Assembly (NCBI GenBank): GCA_034433385.1
Contig: DAOUAN010000154.1
Span: 3,806-67,805 of the forward strand
Length of the DNA stretch: 64,000 bases
From: Anaerolineales bacterium
GTDB taxonomy: Bacteria > Chloroflexota > Anaerolineae > Anaerolineales > Villigracilaceae
Direction of reading: 5' to 3'
Shown here: positions 12,340 through 56,936 of the stretch, piece after piece
Position numbering within the stretch: the stretch's first letter is position 1
Layout of the letters: the number at the start of each line of letters is the position of its first letter
Notes under the pieces: generated by a model
Told to the model about the DNA's origin: nothing
Databases searched by the model: none
The model's input: the letters and a program-made list of their open reading frames with translations, nothing else
Position numbers and translations under genes: made by a program

Positions 12340-14337
12340 ATGCTGCTTACCGGATCGTCCATGCGGCCTCAGAAACATTTCTTTCGCTACTTACTGATTT
12401 TCATCTTCGTCTTGAGTGCCTTGGGTGGTGCATTGCCTCCCTGGCCAGAGGTAGCGCGGGCTGCTGCACCAGCACAAGCTGCATCTCATGTGGTCATCAG
12501 TGAGTTTCGTTTCCGCGGGCCACAAGGGGGCAACGATGAATTCATTGAATTGTATAATCCGACAGGAGATACTGTAGATATTAGTAATTGGAGTATCTGG
12601 AAATCCAATGGAAGCGGTGTTCAAAGCCAAATCAAAAAAATTCCTTCTGGAACTTTATTGCACTCTGGGCAGCACTATTTAATTGCAAATACAAATTCTA
12701 ATGGCTACAGCGGAAGCGTTCCGCCAGATCTTACTTACACCTCTGGAATTACTGATGATGGCGGCATTGCTCTCCTGGACAATCAGGGGCATTCTGTGGA
12801 TGAGGTGGGAATGACGATATGCCCTGTTACTCCAATTCCTACTCCTACTCCTACTTCGACCCCTCGCTGTTACTATGAAACAAATCCATTAACAGCATTA
12901 ACCACAAACAGCGACCAGGGCTATGAACGCAAGTTGGGTGGAAGCAGTGATAGCTGCCAGGACAGCGATGATAATGCGAATGATTTTTTGCTGGTTTCCC
13001 CCAGCGACCCGCAAAATTCCTCTTCTCCCTTGCGGTTATGTGGCGTCATCTTGCCTACTTTGACCCCTACGGATACGCCAACACCTACCAATATTCCCAC
13101 GGATACCCCCACGCCTCCTCCCACGCCGGCCTGTGCAGATCGCCCCAATGCTACCCCGCTTTCGATCTTGATCAACGAAGTCGCCTGGGCCGGTACCGCG
13201 GCAAACAGCGCCGATGAGTGGATTGAACTGTATAACCCTGGTTCCACCTGTATCAAACTAGATGGCTGGATATTAAAGGCGGATGATAATACCCCGACTA
13301 TCAATCTTAGCGGCGTGATTCAGGCCAATGGGTATTATTTGTTGGAACGCAGCGATGACAACACGGTGAAAGATATTCCGGCAGATAAAATTTACAGCGG
13401 GGAACTTTCGAATAGTGGCGAAAAATTACTTTTGTATAATCCCAATGGTGGGGTGGTGGATACAGCCAACAATGATGGCGGTGGTTGGCCAGCCGGAAGC
13501 AGCCTGATCTATGGCAGCATGGAACGCCGCGGCATCATGTTGGATGTCCCCTCAGCCTGGTTGACCAATACCGGTGCGGTTCGCGACGGTCATGGCCTGG
13601 ATGCGGATGGGCATGAAATCAACGGCACCCCCAAAGCACGAAACTGGGCAGTCACCGTGACCAATACCCCTATCCGCCGCCCCACGGCGACACCTACCCG
13701 TCCGCCTACGCCAGTAGCGCATATCGTAATTAACGAATTCCTGCCACGCCCCGGCTTTGACTGGAATCGCGATGGCCAGGTAAATGTTTACGATGAATTC
13801 ATCGAAATCGCCAACTATGGTCCGGTCGCTGGCTCAGTTTCGGGATGGAAACTGGATGACGAAGCCAATCTTGGTTCGGCGCCTTTTGCTTTACCAAACG
13901 TCACATTGAACCCTGGAGATCACCTGATCGTATATGCCTCCCAAAGCAACATCTTGCTCAGCGACGGAGGCGACACTGTTCGTCTGATTAATTCTCGTGG
14001 TATCGTGGTAGATGCGCGCACCTATTCCATCGCCGCGGTTGCCGATCAATCCTGGTGCCGTTTGCCCGATATGCGAGGATCCTGGTTCAGCGATTGTACC
14101 CCTACCCCAAATTTGCCCAATGAACGAAAAGGAGCCATTCCGGCTACGCCTCCCGGTACAGGATTGGAATCGCCGCTTTGCCTGTTCCCCGATACACTAC
14201 CGGATGACTTTCGACGGGCAGAATGTGCTGGCTATGGCTCAAATATCTGGCAGCCTGCTTACTGGGACGCGCCCGGCTGGCAAGGGTTGCAATGGGTGCC
14301 AGACCTGTTCAGCAAGTGGCTTTCGTTTGTGGAGTAA
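12340..14337 (+). CDS. Secreted protein with three lamin-tail-domain (LTD) repeats and Thr/Pro linkers
   Basis: N-terminal hydrophobic signal. Three LTD-like cores: HVVISEFRFRG..NDEFIELYNPTGDTVDISNWSI, ILINEVAWAGT..ADEWIELYNPGSTCIKLDGWIL and HIVINEFLPRP..YDEFIEIANYGPVAGSVSGWKL. TPTPT-type linkers. The start may be ATG 12361. Confidence 0.75.
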   Translation: MLLTGSSMRPQKHFFRYLLIFIFVLSALGGALPPWPEVARAAAPAQAASHVVISEFRFRGPQGGNDEFIELYNPTGDTVDISNWSIWKSNGSGVQSQIKKIPSGTLLHSGQHYLIANTNSNGYSGSVPPDLTYTSGITDDGGIALLDNQGHSVDEVGMTICPVTPIPTPTPTSTPRCYYETNPLTALTTNSDQGYERKLGGSSDSCQDSDDNANDFLLVSPSDPQNSSSPLRLCGVILPTLTPTDTPTPTNIPTDTPTPPPTPACADRPNATPLSILINEVAWAGTAANSADEWIELYNPGSTCIKLDGWILKADDNTPTINLSGVIQANGYYLLERSDDNTVKDIPADKIYSGELSNSGEKLLLYNPNGGVVDTANNDGGGWPAGSSLIYGSMERRGIMLDVPSAWLTNTGAVRDGHGLDADGHEINGTPKARNWAVTVTNTPIRRPTATPTRPPTPVAHIVINEFLPRPGFDWNRDGQVNVYDEFIEIANYGPVAGSVSGWKLDDEANLGSAPFALPNVTLNPGDHLIVYASQSNILLSDGGDTVRLINSRGIVVDARTYSIAAVADQSWCRLPDMRGSWFSDCTPTPNLPNERKGAIPATPPGTGLESPLCLFPDTLPDDFRRAECAGYGSNIWQPAYWDAPGWQGLQWVPDLFSKWLSFVE

Positions 14338-14341
14338 ATTT

Positions 14342-15311
14342 TCAGTTGTAATACTGCACTTTGGGGGGTGAAATCTTGTGCTGTGAGGCCGCCAGGAGTT
14401 CATCTACCGTGCTGATATGGTTTTTTACCGTGGTCGGATGGTAATGGATGTGCACGCGGCTCAAATTTGGAATGGAACGACACAGCAGATTTTCTACCTG
14501 AGAGGCGATTGCATCTCCCTCCCACACCGATAATGAGCCATCAATGCCAATCGTCAGGTTGATCACAATGTGAGGGCCAAAGCGATGCGCCTGCAATTCT
14601 TCCACTTGCTGAACCCCCGCTGTCGCCTGCAACAAATCCGAGATCTGTTGTGCCAGATCCCGGCTGGGGACGGCATCCATCAGCTCGACCGAGGATTCCC
14701 GCAAAATAGCGATTCCGGTTCGCAGAATCAGGATGGCGACCAGCGCCCCAGCCAGCGGATCTACCCAGGGGAGGCCGCGCTGACCGAGGAAAATCCCCAG
14801 CGAGGCGGCTGAGGCCGAAAGGACATCGTTGCGATGATCCTGAGCCAGTGCGTCTACAACCGGGTTGTGGGTTTGCTTCCCTAGCCGACGGACATAATAG
14901 GTCAAAAAAAGTTTGATGAGCACCGTCAGGAGAGCGATCCATAGGGCAATGTCGGCTGCTCCCTGCGATTCGATTTTCCCATCCAACAAATCCCAAACTT
15001 TGTCCACTGCATCCCAAAAAAACGGCGACGGCAGTCGTGACGATAAACGATCCTACCACCAGCGAGGCGATGCTTTCTAGTTGGCGATGGCCGTAGGGAT
15101 GTTCAACATCGGGCGGTTTATTTGCCAGACGGACAAAAATGGCCGCTACAACATAGTAAGCCACATCTGAGGTGGAATTAATCCCCTCGGCCAGCAGGGC
15201 CGGGCTATGACCAATGACGCCCGCGGTTGTCTTGATGAAGGAAAGGATGATGTTGATTACCAGACCAAGGTGAACCGCCAACAGGCTTTTCTGATCTCGC
15301 TCGTGGGTCAT
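14342..15311 (-). pseudogene. Cation diffusion facilitator (CDF) transporter, frameshifted at a homopolymer
   Basis: ORFs 14541-15368 (N-terminal TM region, GINSTSDVAYY...HPYGHRQLE) and 14342-15007 (C-terminal half) are two pieces of one CDF gene. Removing one base from the A7 run at 15016-15022 gives a continuous ...AVAVFWDAVDKVWDLL... Confidence 0.75.
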
Positions 15312-15430
15312 GGATAAGACTCCTGAACTCGATTTTATAATAGCCCGTTGGCGGTCGTAAATGGACAAATATCCTGTTTTATCTGTGCAGTCAAATCAAA
15401 AATATGACGGGATTTGTCAGGCCGGTTGTG

Positions 15431-17368
15431 TCAATCCATGCCGTCTTCTGCTCGCAAAATATGCCCAAATAGGGGTGAGGGTTCTCCAACAGAGCTGAGC
15501 GCCTTGCTTTTTTGAGACCCAGGAATCTCATATTGCTGGCGGGCAAGGTATATGAATAGGAATTCAAATAGATTTTCGCGATAAGCACTATCCTCAGCAA
15601 TAAAAGAGACACCTAATTGCAATGAGTCGGATGACATCTTGTTTTTGCGGTGAATGTTTTTGAGAGGCAGAACAATGCATTTCCCCGTCGGCGTATCGAA
15701 GTGCAGGGCCAGTTTTCCATGTGCCTCAGGGAAAGAGTGCTTGACTTTTAAGCCAGCGCCGCTAATGGAGATATCGGTGATTTCAACCTTTGTCAGCAGT
15801 TTTGAATGCTCGAGGTCGTATAAATCGCCCTGGATATAAGCAGGGAAGCGATATTGTTTGCGCTCGTGGGGTTTTTTCAAAATTTCTCGTACCGCGGTCA
15901 GGATAATATAAGCATTGTAGGATGCCCAGAAGAGTGCAATAGAAGCGTTGGTTGGGCTATTTTGTGCCAATGCCCCATGGTGGGTGATCATCTCAGAAAG
16001 CCCATAGATGATTGCCCCGATGAGCACCCCTAAAATGACCATGTAGGAGCGTAAGGCTTTTCTCTCTTTGGCATAGACCGAATCATCCACAGATTTAGGG
16101 GTCACTTTGAATTTGAGCGGCCGGCTGAAGATCAGGGTCAGGGTGGATTGAATGAAGACGATCATCTTGAGAATGTTATATTTTTCCGTCTGGAAATAAC
16201 GGAAATAGCCGCGCCCGCCAACCTGATTGGCCAGAATGTTCAGTAAGAAGTATGGCGTCCAGTGAAGGATAAAAGGCAAAGCCTCTATCTGCATAGGGAA
16301 GATGCCACCAAGCAAAATCAAAAGCGGGGTCAGAATGAGGATCAGTTTCTGGAAAGACTCAAAATAGGCCAGAAAACTGGCAAGATAAGAGAGCCGTTGC
16401 CCCAGCGTGAGGCCGGGAATCCACAATGGGCTTTCCTTGCTGCGATAGAGCTGCATTGTTCCCTGCGCCCAGCGAAGCCGTTGAAGCAAGAAGGCCTGAA
16501 TGGTCTGGGGAGCGATACCGTAAGCAAGTTCTTCGTTCAAGAAATAGGTTGACCAGCCGCGGCTGTGCAGGCGCACGGAGGTGTGAATGTCCTCGGTGAT
16601 TGTCTCGGTGGCAACTCCGCCCACCGACTCGATCGCTTTTCGACGCACAATGGATGGGCTACCGCACCAGAAGGCGCTGTTTGAGTGATTTTTCCCTGGC
16701 TGAATCACTCGGAAGAAGAGGGATTGTTCATGCCAATCTCTGCGTTTCTTATCGTGTTGGATCGAATCGTGGTTATAAAATTCTTGCGGCAGCTGAATGA
16801 GAGCCAGATTCTCATCTTCAAAGTAGCCTAAGGTTCGTTCGATGAAATCAGGCTGGGGAACCATGTCCGCATCCAGGATGACGATGAACTCGCCATCGGT
16901 ATGCTGAAGGGCGTAGTTGATATTCCCCGCTTTGGCATGTTCGTTGGTGGGACGAGTAAGATAATAGCAACCGAGGCGTTCTGCCAACTGTTTGACAGAT
17001 TCCCTGCGACCGTCATCCAGAACATAGGTTTTATGTGGGTAGCGAATGTTTTTACAGCCCACCATGGTAGCTTCGAGAATTTCTAAATCTTCATTGTAAG
17101 TGGGGATAAAAACATCCACACGGATGCCGGGCCTGGGTGGTACATAGGAGCGGGTGGGAGAAATATCCTGGGTGAGCCAGGAGAACAAAATGTAACTGAG
17201 CACTCCAAAGGCCTCTGCTCCCCATAACAGCCATGAAAAGAAGGGCACAACGGGGTTCAGCGTGTACTCGGCGCGCCACCACAAGTAATAGAGCAGATAG
17301 ATGATTGATACGATTGAAATCACCTTAATGTAGGTAGATTGATCGAAAAGTTTGTTGATCTTTTTCAT
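15431..17368 (-). CDS. Processive GT2 polysaccharide synthase (cellulose-synthase-like) with a C-terminal PilZ domain
   Basis: GT2 motifs YVLDDGRR, ILDADMVP, TEDIHTSVRLH and QRLRWAQG (QxxRW). TM segments flank the catalytic domain. The PilZ signature is RKQYR (RxxxR) ... DISISG (DxSxxG). Confidence 0.85.
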   Translation of the reverse strand: MKKINKLFDQSTYIKVISIVSIIYLLYYLWWRAEYTLNPVVPFFSWLLWGAEAFGVLSYILFSWLTQDISPTRSYVPPRPGIRVDVFIPTYNEDLEILEATMVGCKNIRYPHKTYVLDDGRRESVKQLAERLGCYYLTRPTNEHAKAGNINYALQHTDGEFIVILDADMVPQPDFIERTLGYFEDENLALIQLPQEFYNHDSIQHDKKRRDWHEQSLFFRVIQPGKNHSNSAFWCGSPSIVRRKAIESVGGVATETITEDIHTSVRLHSRGWSTYFLNEELAYGIAPQTIQAFLLQRLRWAQGTMQLYRSKESPLWIPGLTLGQRLSYLASFLAYFESFQKLILILTPLLILLGGIFPMQIEALPFILHWTPYFLLNILANQVGGRGYFRYFQTEKYNILKMIVFIQSTLTLIFSRPLKFKVTPKSVDDSVYAKERKALRSYMVILGVLIGAIIYGLSEMITHHGALAQNSPTNASIALFWASYNAYIILTAVREILKKPHERKQYRFPAYIQGDLYDLEHSKLLTKVEITDISISGAGLKVKHSFPEAHGKLALHFDTPTGKCIVLPLKNIHRKNKMSSDSLQLGVSFIAEDSAYRENLFEFLFIYLARQQYEIPGSQKSKALSSVGEPSPLFGHILRAEDGMD

Positions 17369-17445
17369 TTTATTTTTTCCAAAAAACTTTTACCAGAGCG
17401 AAAACAATTAACCCGAACAGTTTGGTAGTCTCATGCGGTGCATTC

Positions 17446-17478
17446 AAAAAATACAGGCCTGACGGATCGCCAGGCCTG
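17446..17478 (-). terminator. Intrinsic terminator (expression platform of the c-di-GMP riboswitch)
   Basis: The minus strand reads CAGGCCUG-GCGAUCCGU-CAGGCCUG followed by UAUUUUUUG. It lies between the aptamer and the GT2 start codon. Confidence 0.65.
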
Positions 17479-17504
17479 AAAATGTCGTGCAAAGTGCGCC
17501 TCAA

Positions 17505-17605
17505 GATTTTCGGCAGCCTGGCAGTCATTGATACGATGTATCATTAGACCCATGGCTTTGCGTCCCTATCTTTCGATAGGTTTGCTATTATCGTATTTGC
17601 ATTCT
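17505..17605 (-). ncRNA. c-di-GMP-I (GEMM-I) riboswitch aptamer
   Basis: The minus strand reads GCAAACCUAUCGAAAGAUAGGGACGCAAAGCCAUGGGUCUAAUGAUACAUCGUAUCAAUGACUGCCAGGC. It has GCAAAC, a 6-bp helix capped by a GAAA tetraloop, the invariant GGACGCAAAGCC, and a second helix with a UCUAA bulge. Confidence 0.8.
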
Positions 17606-17747: not shown

Positions 17748-19547
17748 ATGACTGACCATATTCGTAATTTCTGCATTATTGCTCATGTGGATCACGGCAA
17801 GTCCACGCTGGCGGATCGCTTGCTGCAACTGACCGGCACGATTTCTGATCGTGAGATGACGGAGCAGGTGCTCGATAGCATGGACCTGGAACGCGAGAAG
17901 GGTGTGACCATCAAGGCTTCGGCAGTGCGCATGAATTACACCGCCCATGACGGCAAGACTTATGAGCTGAACCTGATCGACACCCCCGGCCATGTCGATT
18001 TTGGCTACGAGGTCAGCCGGGCTTTGGCGGCCTGTGAAGGCGCTATCCTGGTCGTGGATGCTACCCAAGGGATCGAGGCCCAAACCCTGGCAAATTTGTA
18101 TTCCGCGATTGACGCTAACCTGGAGATCATTCCGGTCATTAACAAGATTGACCTGCCCTCTGCCCGCCCCGATGAAGTGGCTGAAGATGTCGGTAGCCTG
18201 CTCGGGGTCCCGCCTGATTCGGTGCTTCGCATTTCTGCGAAAGAGGGGAGAAACGTCGAGGCTGTCCTGGAAGCCATCGTGCAGAAGATCCCGCCTCCCA
18301 AAGGTGAAGCGGGCCGCCCCCTGCGCGCCCTGGTGTTTGATTCACATTATGATTCCTACAAAGGTGTCATCGCTTATGTCCGCATCATGGAAGGATCGGT
18401 GCGTGTGCCCGATTCGCTGCGCATGATGTCCACGAAAGCGGATTTTAAACCGGTGGAGATTGGAATTTTTGCCCCAGGTATGAAACCGGTAGATGGATTA
18501 ACCGCTGGTGAGGTAGGTTATATCGCCACCGGTTTTAAGACTGTGCATGAATGCCGCGTGGGGGATACGATCACGCTCAGTGCCTCCCCCGCCGCCGACC
18601 CGCTGCCGGGCTACCGCCATCCTAAGCCCATGGTTTTTGCCGGCATTTATCCGGTGGAGGCCGATGATTACGCTGATTTGCGTGATGCCCTGGAAAAATT
18701 GCAACTCAACGATGCCTCGCTGACCTTCCAACCGGAAACCTCGCAGGCCCTGGGCTTTGGCTTTCGGGCGGGTTTTTTGGGTCTCTTCCACATGGAAATC
18801 ATCCAGGAACGGCTTGAGCGCGAGTATTTGCTGGATGTGCTCTTTACTGCTCCCTCGGTGGAATATCAGGTGGTGCTGAATGATGGTTCGATTCTGCTGG
18901 TGGATTCGCCTGCTGAATTACCGGATGAAAGCAAGATCGTCGAGATTCGCGAGCCATGGATGACGATTGAAATCATTACCCCAACCGAATTCTACGGCCC
19001 CATCATGGACCTGGTCACCAAACGTCGCGGTGTTTTTAAATCGCAAGAATATCCGGCGCCGCATCGTGTCCAGCTCAATTTTGAAATTCCGCTTTCGGAA
19101 ATCATTGTGGACTTTTTCGATGAGCTCAAGTCACGCACCCGTGGCTATGCATCACTGGATTACCAATTCCTTGAGTATCGGCCAGATGATTTGCAAAAAC
19201 TGGAAATCCTGGTCAACGGCGAGCCGGTGGATGCGCTGGCGACGATTGTCCACAAAAAGGATGCCTTCCATAAAGGTCAGCGCCTGATCACCAAGCTCAA
19301 AGACCTGATCCCGCGCCAGTTGTTTGATGTGGCGGTGCAGGCTGCTGCCGGAGGACGGGTGATTTCGCGAGCCAATGTCAAGGCCACCCGTAAAGACGTG
19401 CTTGCCAAGTGTTATGGCGGCGATATTACCCGCAAGAAGAAACTACTCGAAAAGCAAAAGCGTGGCAAAAAACGCCTGAAAATGGTGGGTAACGTGGAAA
19501 TCCCACAAGAAGCTTTCATGGCCGTTCTGCGCCTGGATGAGGAGTAG
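17748..19547 (+). CDS. lepA: Elongation factor 4 (LepA)
   Basis: [23 protein letters not shown]-domain, [13 protein letters not shown], and the LepA-specific C-terminal region. Confidence 0.95.
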
Positions 19548-53777: not shown

Positions 53778-56700
53778 TTGAAAATGGCCTCTCTCATCTT
53801 TTCACCAGCAATCATTTTTTCCCTGGCGCTTGTGGGAGTGGCGTTGTTGAATGCCTTGCTGGGCCTTTTTACTTTGCACCAGAGGGCGTATCAGGCGGCA
53901 GCCAATTATTTTGCCTGGCTGATGCTGGGCATGGCCTGGTGGGCGGCCGCCTCGGCGCTGGAAATGTTTTCGCAGGATTTGCCAGGCAAATATTTTTGGA
54001 TCAGGGTGGAATATGTGGGAATCGTTCTTGTCCCGTTTTTCTGGTTGGCGTTTGTGCTGGAGTTTATGGGGCATCGCACTTTGCTCAGCCGACGGAATAA
54101 GACGTTGGCGCTGATTGTTCCGCTTTTTACCTTGTTGGCGGTTTGGACGAACGACTATCATCACCTGTATTACTCGAAAATTTATTTGAGCGTTTACGGT
54201 GGTCTGCCGCTGCTGGGGCTGGAGCATGGTCCGCTCTTTTGGGGATATGCCATTTACGCTTACCTGCTGCTGGGAGCGGGAAGCCTGATTTTGCTGATGG
54301 GCGCTCTTCGCTCGCCAACGCTGTTTCGTTCGCAAATTGTGGCGCTTTTGCTGGCGGCTCTTTTCCCCTGGGCGGGGAATGTGATTTACTTGATGGGTTG
54401 GAATCCCATCCCTGAACTGGATCCAACGCCCTTTGCCTTCACGTTGACGGCCATTTCGGTAGCCTGGGCGATGCGCCGCTATCAGCTGTTGCAAATTTTG
54501 CCACCGGCTCAAGCAGAGATTTTGCGGGTGCTGCGCGATGGTGTGGTGGTGGTGGATGAAAACCAGCGCGTGGTTTACATGAACCGCGCCGCCGAAAAAA
54601 TCCTGGGCAAAAATGCCAGGCAGTGTATCGGCGAGAGCGCTGAAAAGGTTTGTGATACCTGCCGCGATATCCTGCCTTTTATGCTCACTACTGAGCCAAA
54701 GAACACTGTGTTACACCTGGAGGTAGACCGCGCCGAGCGCGTCTTCGAGGTAGTCGCGACGCCGTTGTTTGCAGGCAAAGATGAAACAGGTGACCACTCC
54801 TGGCATCTGATTATTTTTTACGATGTTACCCAGAGGGTGAACGCCGAGGCAGCGCTGTATCGCCGCGAGGCCATCCTTTTGGCGGTGAGTAAAGCGGCCA
54901 CTAATTTTTTGGGAATATCGAAGTGGGAGGAAAACATCCCCATTGCGCTGGCCCAATTGGGTTTGGCGGCCAATGTGAGCCGGGTGTATATCTTTGAGCG
55001 GTACGTCGGGCAGGATGGCGTGCCACGCGTCAGTCAACGCTATGAGTGGGTGAAGAGCGGGGTGACGCCGCAAATTGATAATCCGGCCTTGCAAGACCTG
55101 GATTGGCGGGCGGCTGGTTACAGTCGTTGGGAGGAGGCGTTGCTGCGCGGTGAAAGCATTGTCGGGCCAGTCCGCTTGCTTCCCATGCAGGAGCGGGAAT
55201 TGTTACAGGAACAGGACATTCTCTCGATCGCGATCATCCCGATCTTCAGCGGAAACACCTTATGGGGCTTTATAGGTTTTGATGATTGTGAAAAAGAACG
55301 TTCCTGGAGCCAGGCCGAGATCAGTGCTTTGCAAACCGCCGCGGAGGCCTTTGGTGCGGCGGTCATGCGCAACAAAATGGAACATCAGCTGCGCCATAAT
55401 TTGCAACTTCAGCATCTGCTTCAGGAAATTCTGCGCGCCGCCCTGGAAAAAAACAGTATGTCTGAAATGGCGCAATTTTTGGTGGAACATCTGGGAGAGT
55501 TAATTGGTGCCGATAATTGTTTTTTGACCTTGTGGGATGAAGAGCATGGGCGAACGATTCCCTTTGCGGCGTATGGTTTTGCAACGGAGGCCTATCGGCG
55601 TTTGAACATGCGACCTTCCGATAAAACCATCACCGCGGCGGCGCTGGAGGTGGGGCACTCCCTGGTCATCCCCGATGTGCAGAATTCACCTTACCTCAGC
55701 AAGCACATTGCCCGCCAGTTTCCAACGGTTTCCATGCTGGTTGTGCCCCTGATCGCGGATGGTAAAAAACAGGGCGCCATTTTGCTGGGATTTACGCGCC
55801 CTCATTTATTCGTTGAGGAAGAGATTGTAATCAGTGAGCAGGCGGCCGGCCTGGTCTCCCTGGCGCTGGCTAAATTTCAGGCGGTTGAAATGGCGCAACG
55901 CCGCGCCGAAGAGGCGGAAATGTTGCGTCGGGCGGGGATGGCGATCTCGGAAACGCTGGATTTCAACGAGACGATTAATCGCATTCTGGAACAGCTGGCC
56001 CACGTCTTGCCCTATGATAGCGCCTCTGTGCAATTGTTGCGCCAGGGAGAGCTGGAAATTGTGGGGGGCAAGGGTTGGGAGGATCCGGCAATGGTGATCG
56101 GGATGCGCTTCCCCGTGCCGGGAGACAACCCCAATTCTCGCGTGATCGAGACGCGTCAGCCCTATGTGCTGGGAAATGCCGGGGCGGTGTATCCGACCTT
56201 TCGTCAGCCGCCCCATGATCATATCCGCTCGTGGTTGGGGGTGCCGTTGCTGGTGCGCAATCGGGTGGTCGGCCTGCTGGCGATTGACAGCCGAGAACCT
56301 TACTATTTCACCCAAGAGCATGTAAACCTGGCGATGGCATTTGCCAGCCAGGTGGCCGTGGTGATTGAAAATGTCCGCTTGTTCGAAGAGACACAACGCT
56401 TGGCCATTACCGATCCGTTGACTGGGCTTTACAACCGGCGGCGCTTCATAGAACTGGCTCAACAGGAATTCGAGCGCGCGCGGCGCTACAAGCGTAAGCT
56501 CTCTCTTATCATGTTTGATATTGATCACTTCAAGCAAGTCAATGATTCCTATGGCCACCTGGTAGGCGATCAGGTTTTACTGGCGCTGGCTACGTTGTGC
56601 AAGCAGAAATTGCGCGAGGCCGATCCGATTGGCCGTTATGGCGGGGAGGAGTTTATTGCGCTCGTGATTGAGGCCGATTATAAACGGGCTTTTCTGGTGG

Positions 56701-56936
56701 GGGAGCGTTTGCGCCGTGAGGTGGAAAAAATGAGCATACCTGTGCCTGGGGGGGCAATTCACATCACCGTAAGTGTAGGGATCGCTTCGCTGACGAAAAA
56801 TATTCCCGACCTGAAAACGCTGATTTCCCGCGCCGACCAGGCTTTGTATCGGGCCAAACATAATGGCCGCAATCGGGTGGTGGTGAGCGGCTATCGCCGG
56901 GTACTGTCAGGGGGGACATCCGTTCCAGACGGGTAA
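53778..56936 (+). CDS. Multidomain sensor diguanylate cyclase (7TM N-terminal sensor, PAS, GAF domains, GGDEF)
   Basis: Seven N-terminal TM segments, PAS-like ILRVLRDGVVVVDENQRVVYMNRAAEKILG, several GAF-like segments, and a C-terminal GGDEF domain with RYGGEEFIAL and an RxxD I-site (READ) 5 residues upstream. Confidence 0.88.
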   Translation: MKMASLIFSPAIIFSLALVGVALLNALLGLFTLHQRAYQAAANYFAWLMLGMAWWAAASALEMFSQDLPGKYFWIRVEYVGIVLVPFFWLAFVLEFMGHRTLLSRRNKTLALIVPLFTLLAVWTNDYHHLYYSKIYLSVYGGLPLLGLEHGPLFWGYAIYAYLLLGAGSLILLMGALRSPTLFRSQIVALLLAALFPWAGNVIYLMGWNPIPELDPTPFAFTLTAISVAWAMRRYQLLQILPPAQAEILRVLRDGVVVVDENQRVVYMNRAAEKILGKNARQCIGESAEKVCDTCRDILPFMLTTEPKNTVLHLEVDRAERVFEVVATPLFAGKDETGDHSWHLIIFYDVTQRVNAEAALYRREAILLAVSKAATNFLGISKWEENIPIALAQLGLAANVSRVYIFERYVGQDGVPRVSQRYEWVKSGVTPQIDNPALQDLDWRAAGYSRWEEALLRGESIVGPVRLLPMQERELLQEQDILSIAIIPIFSGNTLWGFIGFDDCEKERSWSQAEISALQTAAEAFGAAVMRNKMEHQLRHNLQLQHLLQEILRAALEKNSMSEMAQFLVEHLGELIGADNCFLTLWDEEHGRTIPFAAYGFATEAYRRLNMRPSDKTITAAALEVGHSLVIPDVQNSPYLSKHIARQFPTVSMLVVPLIADGKKQGAILLGFTRPHLFVEEEIVISEQAAGLVSLALAKFQAVEMAQRRAEEAEMLRRAGMAISETLDFNETINRILEQLAHVLPYDSASVQLLRQGELEIVGGKGWEDPAMVIGMRFPVPGDNPNSRVIETRQPYVLGNAGAVYPTFRQPPHDHIRSWLGVPLLVRNRVVGLLAIDSREPYYFTQEHVNLAMAFASQVAVVIENVRLFEETQRLAITDPLTGLYNRRRFIELAQQEFERARRYKRKLSLIMFDIDHFKQVNDSYGHLVGDQVLLALATLCKQKLREADPIGRYGGEEFIALVIEADYKRAFLVGERLRREVEKMSIPVPGGAIHITVSVGIASLTKNIPDLKTLISRADQALYRAKHNGRNRVVVSGYRRVLSGGTSVPDG

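What the first reader, a model, noticed from the sequence alone, without database searches (positions are those of the whole stretch)
17446..17605. c-di-GMP-I riboswitch plus terminator controls a PilZ-bearing GT2 synthase: two c-di-GMP checkpoints on one gene
The 380-nt leader of the cellulose-synthase-like gene contains GCAAACC-UAUC-GAAA-GAUA-GGGACGCAAAGCC-AUGGGUCUAA.... As I recall it, this matches the V. cholerae Vc2 GEMM-I aptamer core block for block (GCAAACC-AUUC-GAAA-GAGU-GGGACGCAAAGCC-UCCGGCCUAA). An intrinsic terminator follows (CAGGCCUG-N9-CAGGCCUG-UAUUUUUUG). CCAGGC in the aptamer 3-prime arm is complementary to GCCUGG in the terminator left arm, which gives a plausible switching mechanism. 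The enzyme itself carries a PilZ domain (RKQYR...DISISG). The same ligand would therefore gate both transcription elongation and enzyme activity. No bcsB-like partner is adjacent, so the polymer product is unknown.
Basis: partly seen in the sequence, partly recalled or inferred. Interest (0 to 1): 0.7.

Follow-up and report, generated by a model that had tools for sequence, protein, structure and literature searches.

The report
Cyclic-dinucleotide OFF riboswitch before PilZ synthase
A genuine class-I cyclic-di-GMP-type riboswitch sits in front of a stand-alone cellulose-synthase-like gene in an Anaerolineae genome, but its design predicts that the messenger stops transcription while the enzyme's PilZ domain predicts that the messenger switches the enzyme on, and its key ligand-reading base is A where the textbook riboswitch has G.

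Summary
Rfam RF01051 (c-di-GMP-I) matches window 17596-17509 (minus strand) over the full model at 87.2 bits (gathering score 35, E 7e-16). An 11-bp intrinsic terminator with a U-tract follows at 17478-17446. The gene behind it (17368-15431) is a BcsA-fold GT2 with an intact PilZ domain and no BcsB partner.

The interpretation needs two corrections.
- **Sign.** The aptamer's 3' strand and tail pair with the end of the linker and the terminator's left arm, giving a 14-bp antiterminator that excludes both aptamer and terminator. This is the classical OFF design, in which ligand causes termination. The same design appears in 8 of the 9 other distinct orthologous leaders that carry the aptamer. 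RNA-level and protein-level control therefore have opposite signs.
- **Ligand.** The ligand-contact position equivalent to Vc2 G20 is A (17586). This is the hallmark of 3',3'-cGAMP-sensing or bispecific GEMM-I variants. Syntenic orthologues have G. Calling both checkpoints c-di-GMP checkpoints is therefore not safe.

The RNA is a new member of a known riboswitch class. The opposite-sign pairing with PilZ and the G/A toggling among orthologous leaders are the interesting parts. All of this is computational.

The parts
17509..17596 (-). Class-I cyclic-dinucleotide aptamer (Rfam RF01051). It has a first hairpin with a GAAA tetraloop (17585-17560) and a second, receptor hairpin (17557-17515).
   Evidence: 87.2 bits, E 7e-16, full model; 102.3 bits with my own model R1; covariation in 96 relatives.
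17586..17586 (-). Ligand-contact position equivalent to Vc2 G20. Here it is A, preceded by U (AAUA-GC).
   Evidence: alignment: model position 11 has consensus G and the window has A; the window and L046 have A and the other leaders have G. A in 18 of 94 related aptamers, with U19 enriched among them (10 of 18 against 6 of 75).
17559..17559 (-). Equivalent of Vc2 A47, the base that intercalates between the two ligand bases. It is canonical A here.
   Evidence: The RF03167 'GGC' consensus has G at this position; the window and all its relatives have A.
17513..17513 (-). Equivalent of Vc2 C92, which forms a Watson-Crick pair with one ligand guanine. It is canonical C here, within GCU-G-C-CGAA.
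   Evidence: alignment. The position was assigned from the Vc2 numbering described in PMC6140456.
17506..17522 (-). 5' strand of the antiterminator, GCCAGGCU-GCC-GAAAAU. It is the 3' strand of the second aptamer hairpin plus C92 plus the 3' strand of the closing helix.
   Evidence: prefix folds of 132-140 nt; duplex -22.2 kcal/mol, p = 0.002.
17469..17483 (-). 3' strand of the antiterminator, AUUUUC-A-GGCCUGGC. It is the end of the linker plus the left arm of the terminator.
17446..17478 (-). Intrinsic terminator: stem CAGGCCUGGCG / CGUCAGGCCUG, loop AUC, tail UAUUUUUU.
   Evidence: There is no U-run after the hairpin on the plus strand, so it is directional.
15431..17368 (-). Regulated gene: a 645-aa BcsA-like processive GT2 with a C-terminal PilZ domain (residues 503-605, nt 15862-15554).

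Best explanation
The leader of the GT2-PilZ gene is a transcription-terminating OFF riboswitch of the c-di-GMP-I (GEMM-I) class.

Proposed mechanism:
- RNA polymerase first makes the aptamer (17596-17509).
- If a cyclic dinucleotide is bound, the second hairpin and the short closing helix next to C92 stay formed. The downstream 11-bp hairpin with its U-tract (17478-17446) then folds, and transcription stops about 80 nt before the start codon.
- If no ligand is bound, the aptamer's 3' strand and tail (GCCAGGCU..GAAAAU, 17522-17506) pair with AUUUUC.GGCCUGGC (17483-17469) as soon as that segment emerges. This sequesters the terminator's left arm, and polymerase reads into the gene.

The enzyme made in this way is a stand-alone BcsA-like synthase. 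By analogy with BcsA, its PilZ domain needs c-di-GMP for activity. The messenger would then switch existing enzyme on while shutting off new mRNA.

The ligand-reading base G20 is A in this copy, so I expect the RNA to bind both c-di-GMP and 3',3'-cGAMP. My working assumption is that c-di-GMP is the physiological ligand, because the only cyclase in the window is a canonical diguanylate cyclase and the syntenic orthologues carry G20.

What is shown: the aptamer, the terminator, the mutually exclusive pairing, their recurrence in orthologues, and the protein's fold and motifs. What is inferred: ligand identity, the direction of the response in vivo, and the enzyme's activation and product.
For: **Aptamer.** (87.2 bits, full length; covariation).

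**Terminator.**

**Switch.**
- Folds of growing transcripts keep the aptamer up to 128 nt. They flip to the antiterminator hairpin at 132-140 nt, when the left arm is out and the right arm is not yet made. They return to aptamer plus terminator from 144 nt.
- For the prefix ending before the right arm, the free fold beats the aptamer-enforced fold by 4.2 kcal/mol. Only 8 of 200 dinucleotide shuffles of the linker do as well.
- The duplex between the aptamer 3' strand plus tail and the linker end plus left arm is -22.2 kcal/mol, against a shuffle mean of -12.2 (p = 0.002).
- The antiterminator also uses the CG of the closing helix, which the RF03167 consensus structure shows pairing next to C92.

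**Recurrence.**
- Nine other distinct leaders of orthologous GT2-PilZ genes carry the aptamer: L003/L205, L004, L015, L017, L040, L046, L202, L203 and L204. All have a separate downstream terminator.
- Eight of them show complementarity between the aptamer 3' strand and the terminator's left arm. Seven were scored: L040 -32.8, L015 -26.8, L203 -22.9, L017 -20.0, L004 -19.5, L202 -18.7 and L003 -11.8 kcal/mol, with L003 not significant. For L204 the pairing was only read from its sequence.
- The lower helix changes in a compensatory way: window GAAAAU/AUUUUC against L202 GAAGAAG/CUUCUUC.

**Contrast within the subfamily.** Other members show the opposite, ON design, in which the terminator's left arm is the aptamer's own 3' strand (L089, L103:530, L135). 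The criterion therefore discriminates between the two designs. Published class-I examples include terminating OFF switches (all seven functional ones in C. difficile) and the ON switch Bc2, whose terminated product is only about 121 nt (PMC6366702, PMC4933901).

**Protein.**
- GT2, Cellulose_synt and PilZ domains.
- DDG, DAD, TED, QRLRW, FKVTPK, RxxxR and DxSxxG are invariant in 25 orthologues.
- phmmer hit to BcsA 7lby at 4.5e-76, aligned over residues 17-543.
- AlphaFold model with pTM 0.78 matches BcsA 4p00 and 9b8v at TM 0.75-0.78.

**Ligand.**
- Vc2 G20A binds c-di-GMP at 53 nM and cGAMP at 120 nM (PMC6140456).
- A natural A-variant in Desulfobacca gains cGAMP affinity with only a slight loss for c-di-GMP (PMC9481103).
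- The GGDEF protein in the window (53778-56936) has GHLVGD, RxxD and GGEEF, the canonical diguanylate cyclase signature (signature from PMC6456294).
Against: - At equilibrium the full leader folds into aptamer plus terminator even without ligand. Read-through therefore depends on a kinetic window of roughly 10 nt, and the antiterminator's advantage there is modest (-4.2 kcal/mol). The element could in practice terminate almost constitutively, as reported for Bc1 (PMC11218506).
- No promoter-like site was found by the sigma-70 scan, so the transcription start is unknown.
- An OFF response to c-di-GMP on a polysaccharide synthase runs against the usual direction of c-di-GMP control.
- Reviews warn that the sign of c-di-GMP riboswitches cannot be extrapolated without experiment (PMC6366702).
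- The complementarity in L003 and L046 is not better than shuffles.
- A20 leaves the ligand open.
Confidence: 0.7

Rival explanations
1. The aptamer is a 3',3'-cGAMP-selective (GEMM-Ib-like) riboswitch with the same architecture. cGAMP would then repress transcription of the synthase while c-di-GMP activates the enzyme through PilZ, so two different messengers would converge on one gene.
For: - A at the G20 position, the defining change of cGAMP riboswitches (PMC6140456, PMC9481103).
- The A is not a one-off. It recurs in three distinct GT2-PilZ leaders (window/L201, L202, L046).
- It co-occurs with U at the preceding position far more often than G20 does: 10 of 18 against 6 of 75.
- Four metagenomic loci carry an A20 aptamer in tandem with a G20 aptamer. 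This arrangement would be odd if the two types were redundant.
Against: - Syntenic orthologues (L015, L040, L203, L204) have G20 on the same gene with the same platform.
- G20A alone gives bispecific rather than selective binding in Vc2 (PMC6140456).
- The only cyclase seen in the window is a canonical GGEEF enzyme with Asp at the specificity position.
- No Hypr GGDEF or CD-NTase was seen, although only 64 kb could be examined.
Confidence: 0.2
2. It is an ON switch: ligand binding promotes read-through, so the RNA and PilZ checkpoints reinforce each other.
For: - This would fit the usual biology, in which high c-di-GMP favours matrix polysaccharide.
- Class-I ON switches exist (Bc2, PMC4933901).
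- The sign of these riboswitches is known to be context dependent (PMC6366702).
Against: - The terminator is a self-contained hairpin 29 nt downstream of the aptamer and coexists with the folded aptamer in the MFE.
- The only strong alternative pairing removes the aptamer's 3' strand and the terminator's left arm together.
- Real ON-type platforms in the same aptamer subfamily look different: the terminator's left arm is the aptamer's own 3' strand.
- I found no pairing by which a ligand-bound aptamer could block the terminator.
Confidence: 0.08
3. The aptamer still binds ligand but the platform no longer switches. The strong terminator would act as a constitutive attenuator, or control would be exerted mainly at another level such as translation or RNA stability.
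For: - The equilibrium fold always contains the terminator.
- The antiterminator's advantage is small in this copy.
- Bc1 is a conserved class-I riboswitch that binds c-di-GMP but does not change downstream expression (PMC11218506).
- In the full-length fold, the tail CCGAAAAUC can also pair with the U-rich stretch just upstream of the start codon.
Against: - The antiterminator pairing is maintained in eight of the nine other distinct leaders despite different terminator sequences, with compensatory changes. That is hard to explain without selection for switching.
- The leader is identical in a second strain apart from two homopolymer indels outside the switch.
Confidence: 0.1

Closest known systems
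c-di-GMP-I (GEMM-I) riboswitch, Rfam RF01051; type example V. cholerae Vc2
   Same: Same two-hairpin architecture with a GAAA tetraloop and a receptor hairpin. Same junction sequence (GCAAAC...GGGACGCAAAGCC) and canonical A47 and C92. It is a full-length match well above the gathering score.
   Different: Position 20 is A rather than G. According to PMC6366702, Vc2 does not act through a terminator, whereas this element has a clear terminator/antiterminator platform.
C. difficile class-I riboswitches such as Cd1 (upstream of flgB): terminating OFF switches
   Same: Class-I aptamer followed by an intrinsic terminator, with ligand predicted to increase termination (PMC6366702 for Cd1; here).
   Different: Cd1 turns off motility genes, which fits c-di-GMP logic. 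Here the repressed gene is a PilZ-bearing polysaccharide synthase, the kind of target c-di-GMP normally turns on. The host phylum is Chloroflexota (Anaerolineae).
GEMM-Ib 3',3'-cGAMP riboswitches (Geobacter Gs1761) and bispecific A-variants (C. beijerinckii Cbe 1-2, Desulfobacca)
   Same: A at the G20-equivalent contact position. The overall fold is that of c-di-GMP-I (PMC6140456, PMC9481103).
   Different: No evidence for cGAMP synthesis in this organism. The orthologous leaders carry G. The regulated gene is unrelated to extracellular electron transfer. Selectivity is untested.
Bacterial cellulose synthase BcsA (R. sphaeroides 4P00, E. coli 9B8V/7LBY)
   Same: GT2 core with the D,D,D,QxxRW motifs, TED, the FxVTxK gating loop, and a C-terminal PilZ with RxxxR and DxSxxG. 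The predicted fold matches at TM 0.75-0.78.
   Different: - About 26% identity in the structural alignment.
- Scores below the TIGR03030 and PRK11498 trusted cut-offs: 406.7 against 699.1, and 311.4 against 992.
- The alignment starts at BcsA residue 69 (R. sphaeroides) or 202 (E. coli), so the N-terminal part of BcsA is missing. The model has only two N-terminal helices (residues 10-35 and 42-65) ahead of the GT2 core.
- No BcsB, BcsC or BcsZ lies nearby, and 38 orthologous loci share no conserved neighbour.
- The product is unknown.
Dual-level c-di-GMP control of one polysaccharide system, for example Pel in Pseudomonas, with FleQ at transcription and PelD at the enzyme complex (from my own knowledge)
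   Same: One messenger is read at both the expression level and the enzyme level of the same polysaccharide machinery.
   Different: In that system both levels act in the same direction and the transcriptional sensor is a protein. Here the sensor is an RNA in cis, and its predicted sign is opposite to that of the PilZ domain.

Membership tests
c-di-GMP-I riboswitch (RF01051) | Covariance-model score at or above the curated gathering score over the whole model | tested here: met
   87.2 bits against 35, E 7e-16, positions 1-87 of 87, not truncated.
c-di-GMP-I riboswitch (RF01051) | Two hairpins, the first capped by a GNRA tetraloop that docks into a receptor in the second, with helices supported by covariation | tested here: met
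   - GAAA loop at 17574-17571 and the CUAA receptor region are aligned to the consensus.
- The MFE fold reproduces both hairpins (z = -4.4).
- Across 96 subfamily members, 97% of cells are paired, 12 pairs show double changes, and 0 of 500 shuffles do as well.
- The docking itself is not testable here.
c-di-GMP-I riboswitch (RF01051) | Ligand-contact nucleotides G20, A47 and C92 (Vc2 numbering) | tested here: not met
   A47 (17559) and C92 (17513) are present, but G20 is A (17586) (alignment). About one in five subfamily members share this substitution, so it is a known variant state within the class rather than grounds for exclusion.
c-di-GMP-I riboswitch (RF01051) | Binds c-di-GMP selectively | not testable with these tools
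   Needs in-line probing, ITC or a gel shift. Precedent for G20A: both c-di-GMP and cGAMP bind at nanomolar Kd (PMC6140456).
3',3'-cGAMP riboswitch (GEMM-Ib) | A at the position equivalent to Vc2 G20 | tested here: met
   The context is AAUA-GC. U19 together with A20 recurs in 10 of 18 A20 aptamers.
3',3'-cGAMP riboswitch (GEMM-Ib) | Selectivity for cGAMP over c-di-GMP, and a cGAMP synthase (Hypr GGDEF or DncV-type) in the same organism | tested here: inconclusive
   Selectivity is not testable here. The one GGDEF protein in the window is canonical (GHLVGD, GGEEF, criterion from PMC6456294). Only 64 kb of the genome could be examined.
c-di-GMP-I-GGC variant (RF03167) | G in place of A47 (consensus GACGC-G-AAgCc) | tested here: not met
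   Five orthologous leaders are labelled RF03167 by clan competition, yet all have A at that position, as does the window. The label is an artefact of that model including the closing helix.
Transcription-terminating OFF riboswitch | An intrinsic terminator downstream of the aptamer, plus an antiterminator that is mutually exclusive with both the aptamer and the terminator | tested here: met
   The antiterminator pairs 17522-17506 with 17483-17469, at -22.2 kcal/mol and p = 0.002.
Transcription-terminating OFF riboswitch | The same mutually exclusive pairing is kept in homologous leaders | tested here: met
   It is seen in eight of the nine other distinct leaders, with different terminator sequences (L204 only by inspection of its sequence). 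L003 is weak and L046 is not better than chance.
Transcription-terminating OFF riboswitch | Ligand-dependent increase of the terminated transcript | not testable with these tools
   Needs single-round in vitro transcription, or Term-seq with manipulated messenger levels.
BcsA-type cellulose synthase | Processive GT2 catalytic motifs (DDG, DxD, TED, QxxRW), the FxVTxK gating loop, and a membrane channel fold | tested here: met
   (invariant D118/D119, D166/D168, T258-E259-D260, Q296-R297-R299-W300, F420-V422-T423-K425), and (TM 0.75-0.78 to 4p00 and 9b8v).
BcsA-type cellulose synthase | C-terminal PilZ domain with RxxxR and D/NxSxxG | tested here: met
   - PF07238 scores 23.3 bits against a cut-off of 22.5.
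- R503, R507, S534 and G537 are invariant.
- These residues align to RRSHR and DFSDGG of E. coli BcsA.
- The model has a beta-barrel at residues 508-589.
BcsA-type cellulose synthase | Equivalog-level score and an adjacent BcsB partner | tested here: not met
   TIGR03030 scores 406.7 against a cut-off of 699.1, and PRK11498 scores 311.4 against 992. No BcsB was found among 37 window ORFs scanned. The 38 orthologous loci have no conserved neighbour. I therefore call the protein BcsA-like and do not assert that it makes cellulose.

The most novel reading that the evidence does not exclude
The A20 aptamer is a real 3',3'-cGAMP (or dual cGAMP/c-di-GMP) sensor in a Chloroflexota bacterium. In that case two different cyclic dinucleotides would act with opposite sign on a single orphan BcsA-like synthase: cGAMP would stop its transcription and c-di-GMP would open the enzyme. 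The G/A toggling seen among orthologous leaders would then be evolution rewiring which messenger represses the gene. Even under the more conservative reading, with c-di-GMP at both levels, the element would be a conserved incoherent circuit. Enzyme would be pre-made at low messenger levels, then activated while new synthesis stops.
Probability: 0.2. Interest if true: 0.7.

Novelty: new member of a known kind. Interest (0 to 1): 0.4.

Why it matters
The riboswitch class, A20 variants, terminating OFF platforms and PilZ-gated GT2 synthases are all known, and any Rfam-based annotation would flag this RNA.

What would be worth a specialist's time is the combination. A cis-acting RNA sensor and an allosteric protein sensor for cyclic dinucleotides sit on the same gene with predicted opposite signs, and the arrangement is conserved across at least ten distinct Anaerolineae-type leaders. 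If the prediction is right, the circuit would produce a pulse or a cap on polysaccharide synthesis rather than a simple on/off response.

The set of orthologous leaders that differ at the specificity position (G in seven, A in three) is also useful. It is a natural experiment on how c-di-GMP and cGAMP specificity evolves outside Deltaproteobacteria.

The enzyme family itself is uncharacterised. It is BcsA-like, lacks BcsB, is widespread in Chloroflexota and Firmicutes, and its polymer is unknown.

Tried and rejected
- **RF03167 membership.** Rfam calls five orthologous leaders 'c-di-GMP-I-GGC'. I rejected the label because the defining G47 is absent in all of them. They are canonical G20/A47/C92 aptamers that score better on that model because it includes the closing helix.
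- **Metagenome scan with the aptamer core.** The pattern CGCAAAGCYAWGGGTCTA returned 80 loci with 96 aptamers, but none lies upstream of a GT2-PilZ gene. The scan was useful for covariation, the position-20 census and platform types, but not for the gene association.
- **Genome scan for orthologues.** Only 6 of 80 loci have the aptamer directly upstream. The association is therefore patchy across the wider family. It is consistent among the closest relatives: all four metagenomic homologues (61-64% identity) whose DNA could be fetched carry it. Four other look-ups returned no DNA because the sample files were too large.
- **Promoter.** The sigma-70 scan found nothing. A TAGAAT at 17606-17601 lies a few nt upstream of the aptamer, but I found no convincing -35 and left it unassigned.
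- **Conserved partner gene.** Clustering the neighbours of 38 loci gave no family present in more than 7 loci.
- **Organism name.** The cluster look-up gave no names. The taxonomy (Anaerolineae, Chloroflexota) rests only on the names attached to homologues.
- **Primary cGAMP riboswitch papers.** Kellenberger 2015 and Nelson 2015 are not held in the library, so I relied on later open papers that summarise them.
- **Literature on riboswitch plus PilZ opposite-sign control.** Nothing was found. This is not proof of absence.
- **Benchmarking the sign-calling.** I could not test it on Cd1 or Bc2 because their sequences are not in the available collections. ON-type platforms found within the metagenome set served as the contrast instead.
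Full report
**1. What is in the sequence**

A scan of the whole 64-kb window against all 4227 Rfam families gave one hit. It was RF01051 (c-di-GMP-I) at 17596-17509, with 87.2 bits against a gathering score of 35, E 7e-16, covering model positions 1-87 of 87.

The minimum-free-energy fold of 17600-17440 reproduces both aptamer hairpins and a third, separate hairpin. Its z-score against shuffles is -4.4. That third hairpin (17478-17454; 11 pairs, 8 of them G-C; 3-nt loop) is followed by UAUUUUUU, and the terminator scan picks it up. On the plus strand no U-run follows it, so it works only in the direction of the GT2 gene.

The upstream neighbour is lepA on the opposite strand, starting at 17748. 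The 379-nt intergenic space therefore holds two divergent promoters, and the leader proper is about 229 nt. The sigma-70 scan found no promoter.

**2. The aptamer is real and belongs to a well-populated subfamily**

I built a covariance model from the window and six related leaders. A metagenome scan with an 18-nt core pattern gave 80 loci, and the model found 96 further aptamers in them.
- 97% of base-pair cells are standard pairs.
- 12 of 18 pairs show changes on both sides.
- No shuffle out of 500 and no slid register comes close.

**3. The ligand-contact position is A, not G**

In the Rfam alignment, model position 11 is the base immediately 5' of the first helix. Its consensus is G, and the window has A at 17586. 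This is the position numbered G20 in Vc2, whose Watson-Crick edge reads one guanine of c-di-GMP. A47 and C92 are the other direct contacts (PMC6140456, PMC5888326), and both are canonical here (17559 and 17513).

The published effects of this substitution are as follows.
- G20A turns Vc2 from a picomolar c-di-GMP binder into an RNA that binds c-di-GMP at 53 nM and 3',3'-cGAMP at 120 nM (PMC6140456).
- Natural A-variants include the cGAMP-selective Geobacter riboswitches and bispecific ones such as Cbe 1-2 (PMC6140456).
- A Desulfobacca variant gains cGAMP affinity with only a slight loss for c-di-GMP (PMC9481103).

In my 96-aptamer set, A occupies this position in 18 of 94 readable cases. It is strongly associated with U at the preceding position: 10 of 18 against 6 of 75 for G20. 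The window has that AAUA-GC signature. The A is therefore a recurrent state rather than a random lesion.

The only GGDEF protein in the window is a 7TM-PAS-GAF-GGDEF at 53778-56936. It has GHLVGD, an RxxD I-site and GGEEF. This is the canonical diguanylate cyclase signature, not the Ser/Thr-plus-GGDEF Hypr signature (PMC6456294). That says the organism makes c-di-GMP. It says nothing about the rest of the genome.

**4. Direction of the switch**

CCAGGC is the 3' strand of the second aptamer hairpin.

The pairing extends much further. 5'-GCCAGGCU-GCC-GAAAAU (17522-17506) pairs with 5'-AUUUUC-A-GGCCUGGC (17483-17469). That gives 8 bp, a 3x1 internal loop and 6 bp, enclosing a 22-nt loop. The helix consumes three things at once:
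- the 3' strand of the second hairpin;
- C92 and the CG of the short closing helix, visible in the RF03167 consensus structure;
- the terminator's left arm.

It therefore cannot coexist with either the ligand-competent aptamer or the terminator.

Folding successive transcript prefixes shows the expected order.
- The aptamer is intact up to 128 nt.
- The antiterminator hairpin is the MFE at 132-140 nt.
- Aptamer plus terminator is the MFE from 144 nt onward.

For the prefix that ends before the right arm, the free fold is 4.2 kcal/mol better than the aptamer-enforced fold, and only 8 of 200 dinucleotide shuffles of the linker do as well. The intermolecular duplex energy of the two strands is -22.2 kcal/mol against a shuffle mean of -12.2 (p = 0.002).

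This is the standard logic of a kinetically controlled OFF riboswitch. Ligand holds the aptamer, so the terminator forms. Without ligand, the antiterminator forms and polymerase reads through.

**5. Homologous leaders**

The protein has thousands of relatives, and the best-named ones come from Anaerolineae/Anaerolineales MAGs. In 80 genome loci encoding relatives, the aptamer lies directly upstream in L003, L004, L015, L017, L040 and L046, and L043 has a tandem pair 1.2 kb upstream. All four closer metagenomic homologues whose DNA could be fetched also have it (L202-L205). A near-identical strain, L201, has the same leader apart from two homopolymer indels.

The window, L015, L040, L203 and L204 share the lepA-leader-GT2 arrangement, so they are positional orthologues.

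Every one of these leaders has a separate terminator 20-50 nt after the aptamer. In eight of the nine other distinct leaders, the aptamer's 3' strand and tail are complementary to the linker end plus the terminator's left arm. Seven were scored (L040 -32.8, L015 -26.8, L203 -22.9, L017 -20.0, L004 -19.5, L202 -18.7 and L003 -11.8 kcal/mol), and for L204 I read the pairing directly from its sequence. L003 and L046 do no better than shuffles.

The terminator sequences differ between leaders (GGCGGCUGG, ACGGUCUGGA, GCCUGGUG and others), yet the pairing persists. The lower helix shows a compensatory change: GAAAAU/AUUUUC in the window against GAAGAAG/CUUCUUC in L202.

The same aptamer subfamily also contains platforms of the opposite type, in which the terminator's left arm is the aptamer's own 3' strand followed directly by its complement and a U-run (L089, L103:530, L135). 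The criterion therefore separates the two designs. The window belongs with L151, L091, L107, L154, L140 and L040, which have a separate terminator and a 7-9-nt perfect complement to CCAGGCC.

Published class-I riboswitches include terminating OFF switches (all seven functional ones in C. difficile) and the ON switch Bc2 (PMC6366702, PMC4933901).

Seven of the ten distinct GT2-PilZ leaders have canonical G20. The OFF design in front of a PilZ synthase is therefore conserved with an unambiguous c-di-GMP aptamer, whatever the A20 copies sense.

**6. The regulated gene**

The 645-aa product has GT2, Cellulose_synt and PilZ domains. It scores 406.7 bits on TIGR03030 (CelA), which is below that model's cut-off of 699.1.

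In an alignment of 25 orthologues, the DDG, DAD, TED, QRLRW and FKVTPK motifs and the PilZ residues R503, R507, S534 and G537 are invariant. phmmer against PDB sequences aligns residues 17-543 to E. coli BcsA (4.5e-76), with RKQYR over RRSHR and DISISG over DFSDGG. An AlphaFold model (pLDDT 75, pTM 0.78) matches BcsA structures at TM 0.75-0.78 and shows the PilZ barrel at residues 508-589.

Compared with BcsA, the protein lacks the N-terminal part. The alignment starts at residue 69 of the Rhodobacter enzyme and at residue 202 of the E. coli enzyme.

No BcsB-like protein is encoded nearby. The neighbours are lepA, a CDF transporter, an LTD-domain protein, a rhomboid protease and an epimerase. 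The 38 orthologous loci share no conserved neighbour.

I call it BcsA-like. Whether the product is cellulose is unknown. That the PilZ domain activates the enzyme is an inference from BcsA.

**7. Putting it together**

The most likely reading (about 0.7) is a terminating OFF riboswitch for a cyclic dinucleotide in front of a synthase that the same messenger family activates through PilZ. The cell would make the enzyme while the messenger is low and keep it idle. When the messenger rises, it would switch the enzyme on and stop making more. This is an incoherent arrangement that would limit or pulse polymer production.

The A at position 20 makes this copy probably bispecific. I put about 0.2 on cGAMP being its physiological ligand.

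The main weaknesses are these.
- At equilibrium the terminator always wins, so the switch must be kinetic.
- The sign of c-di-GMP riboswitches has misled people before (PMC6366702, PMC11218506).
- Nothing here was measured at the bench.

**8. Novelty**

The RNA is a new member of a known class, and its detection is routine. Library searches found no description of a riboswitch and a PilZ domain acting with opposite sign on one gene, but that is weak evidence of novelty. I score interest at 0.4. The find is ordinary as a riboswitch. It is moderately interesting as a conserved regulatory circuit and as a natural G20/A20 series.

Noticed in passing
window 14342-15368 (-): The CDF cation-efflux gene just downstream of the GT2-PilZ gene is split into two overlapping ORFs in different frames (14541-15368 and 14342-15007). 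The near-identical strain L201 has one intact 322-aa ORF. The window and L201 leaders differ only by homopolymer-length indels, so this is probably an assembly or sequencing frameshift rather than a pseudogene.
   Followed up: partly
L124 (2266-2384 and 2100-2192, -), L155 (1256-1349 and 1090-1182, -), L143 (472-564 and 634-721, +), L084 (3095-3188 and 3262-3355, +): These loci carry heterotypic tandem riboswitches: an A20 aptamer with its own terminator, followed by a G20 aptamer. In all four, the tandem sits upstream of a homologous secreted protein of about 220 aa. By eye that protein looks sortase-like (LLAHN ... TFQTCI motifs). This could be a two-messenger logic gate. The protein family was not checked against Pfam.
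   Followed up: partly
L003, L004, L015, L017, L040 (aptamers upstream of GT2-PilZ orthologues): Rfam assigns these aptamers to RF03167 (c-di-GMP-I-GGC) because of clan competition, yet each has A rather than G at the position that defines that variant. Automatic annotation would mislabel them.
   Followed up: yes
window 53778-56936 (+): A large sensor diguanylate cyclase (7TM HisKA_7TM region, PAS, three GAF stretches, GGDEF with an RxxD I-site and GGEEF) lies 36 kb from the riboswitch. It is a candidate source of the messenger.
   Followed up: partly
window 12340-14337 (+); also the locus of P0013: A protein with three lamin-tail domains lies close to the GT2-PilZ gene in the window. A 1170-aa LTD protein lies immediately upstream of the orthologue P0013. 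This may be a loose association between LTD surface proteins and this synthase.
   Followed up: no
loci of P0013, P0022, P0027 and L203: In one sub-clade of orthologues, a convergent bPH_2/SHOCT membrane protein of about 206 aa always follows the GT2-PilZ gene. It is absent from the window.
   Followed up: no
L205 517-1716 (+); L204 5023-6914 (+): A GGDEF protein lies just upstream of the riboswitch-GT2-PilZ unit in L205. A guanylate/adenylate-cyclase-domain protein lies just downstream of it in L204.
   Followed up: no
window 17369-17445 (-) and 17505-17513 (-): In the fold of the full leader, the aptamer tail CCGAAAAUC can pair with the U-rich stretch GUUUUUUGG just upstream of the start codon. 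This could add a translational layer. It was seen only in one MFE structure and is AU-rich, so it may be chance.
   Followed up: no
window residue Q288 of the GT2-PilZ protein (nt 16507-16505, -): In the alignment to E. coli BcsA, a nearly invariant Gln sits where BcsA has the Glu of ATESLSAHIGQRIRW. From memory, this Glu is the residue that forms the autoinhibitory salt bridge with the first PilZ arginine in Rhodobacter BcsA. If that is right, the resting-state lock may differ in this family.
   Followed up: no
L008 12128-12280 (-): A cobalamin riboswitch (RF00174, 57.9 bits) lies about 4 kb downstream of a GT2-PilZ orthologue that lacks the cyclic-dinucleotide aptamer. It is probably unrelated to this finding.
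   Followed up: no
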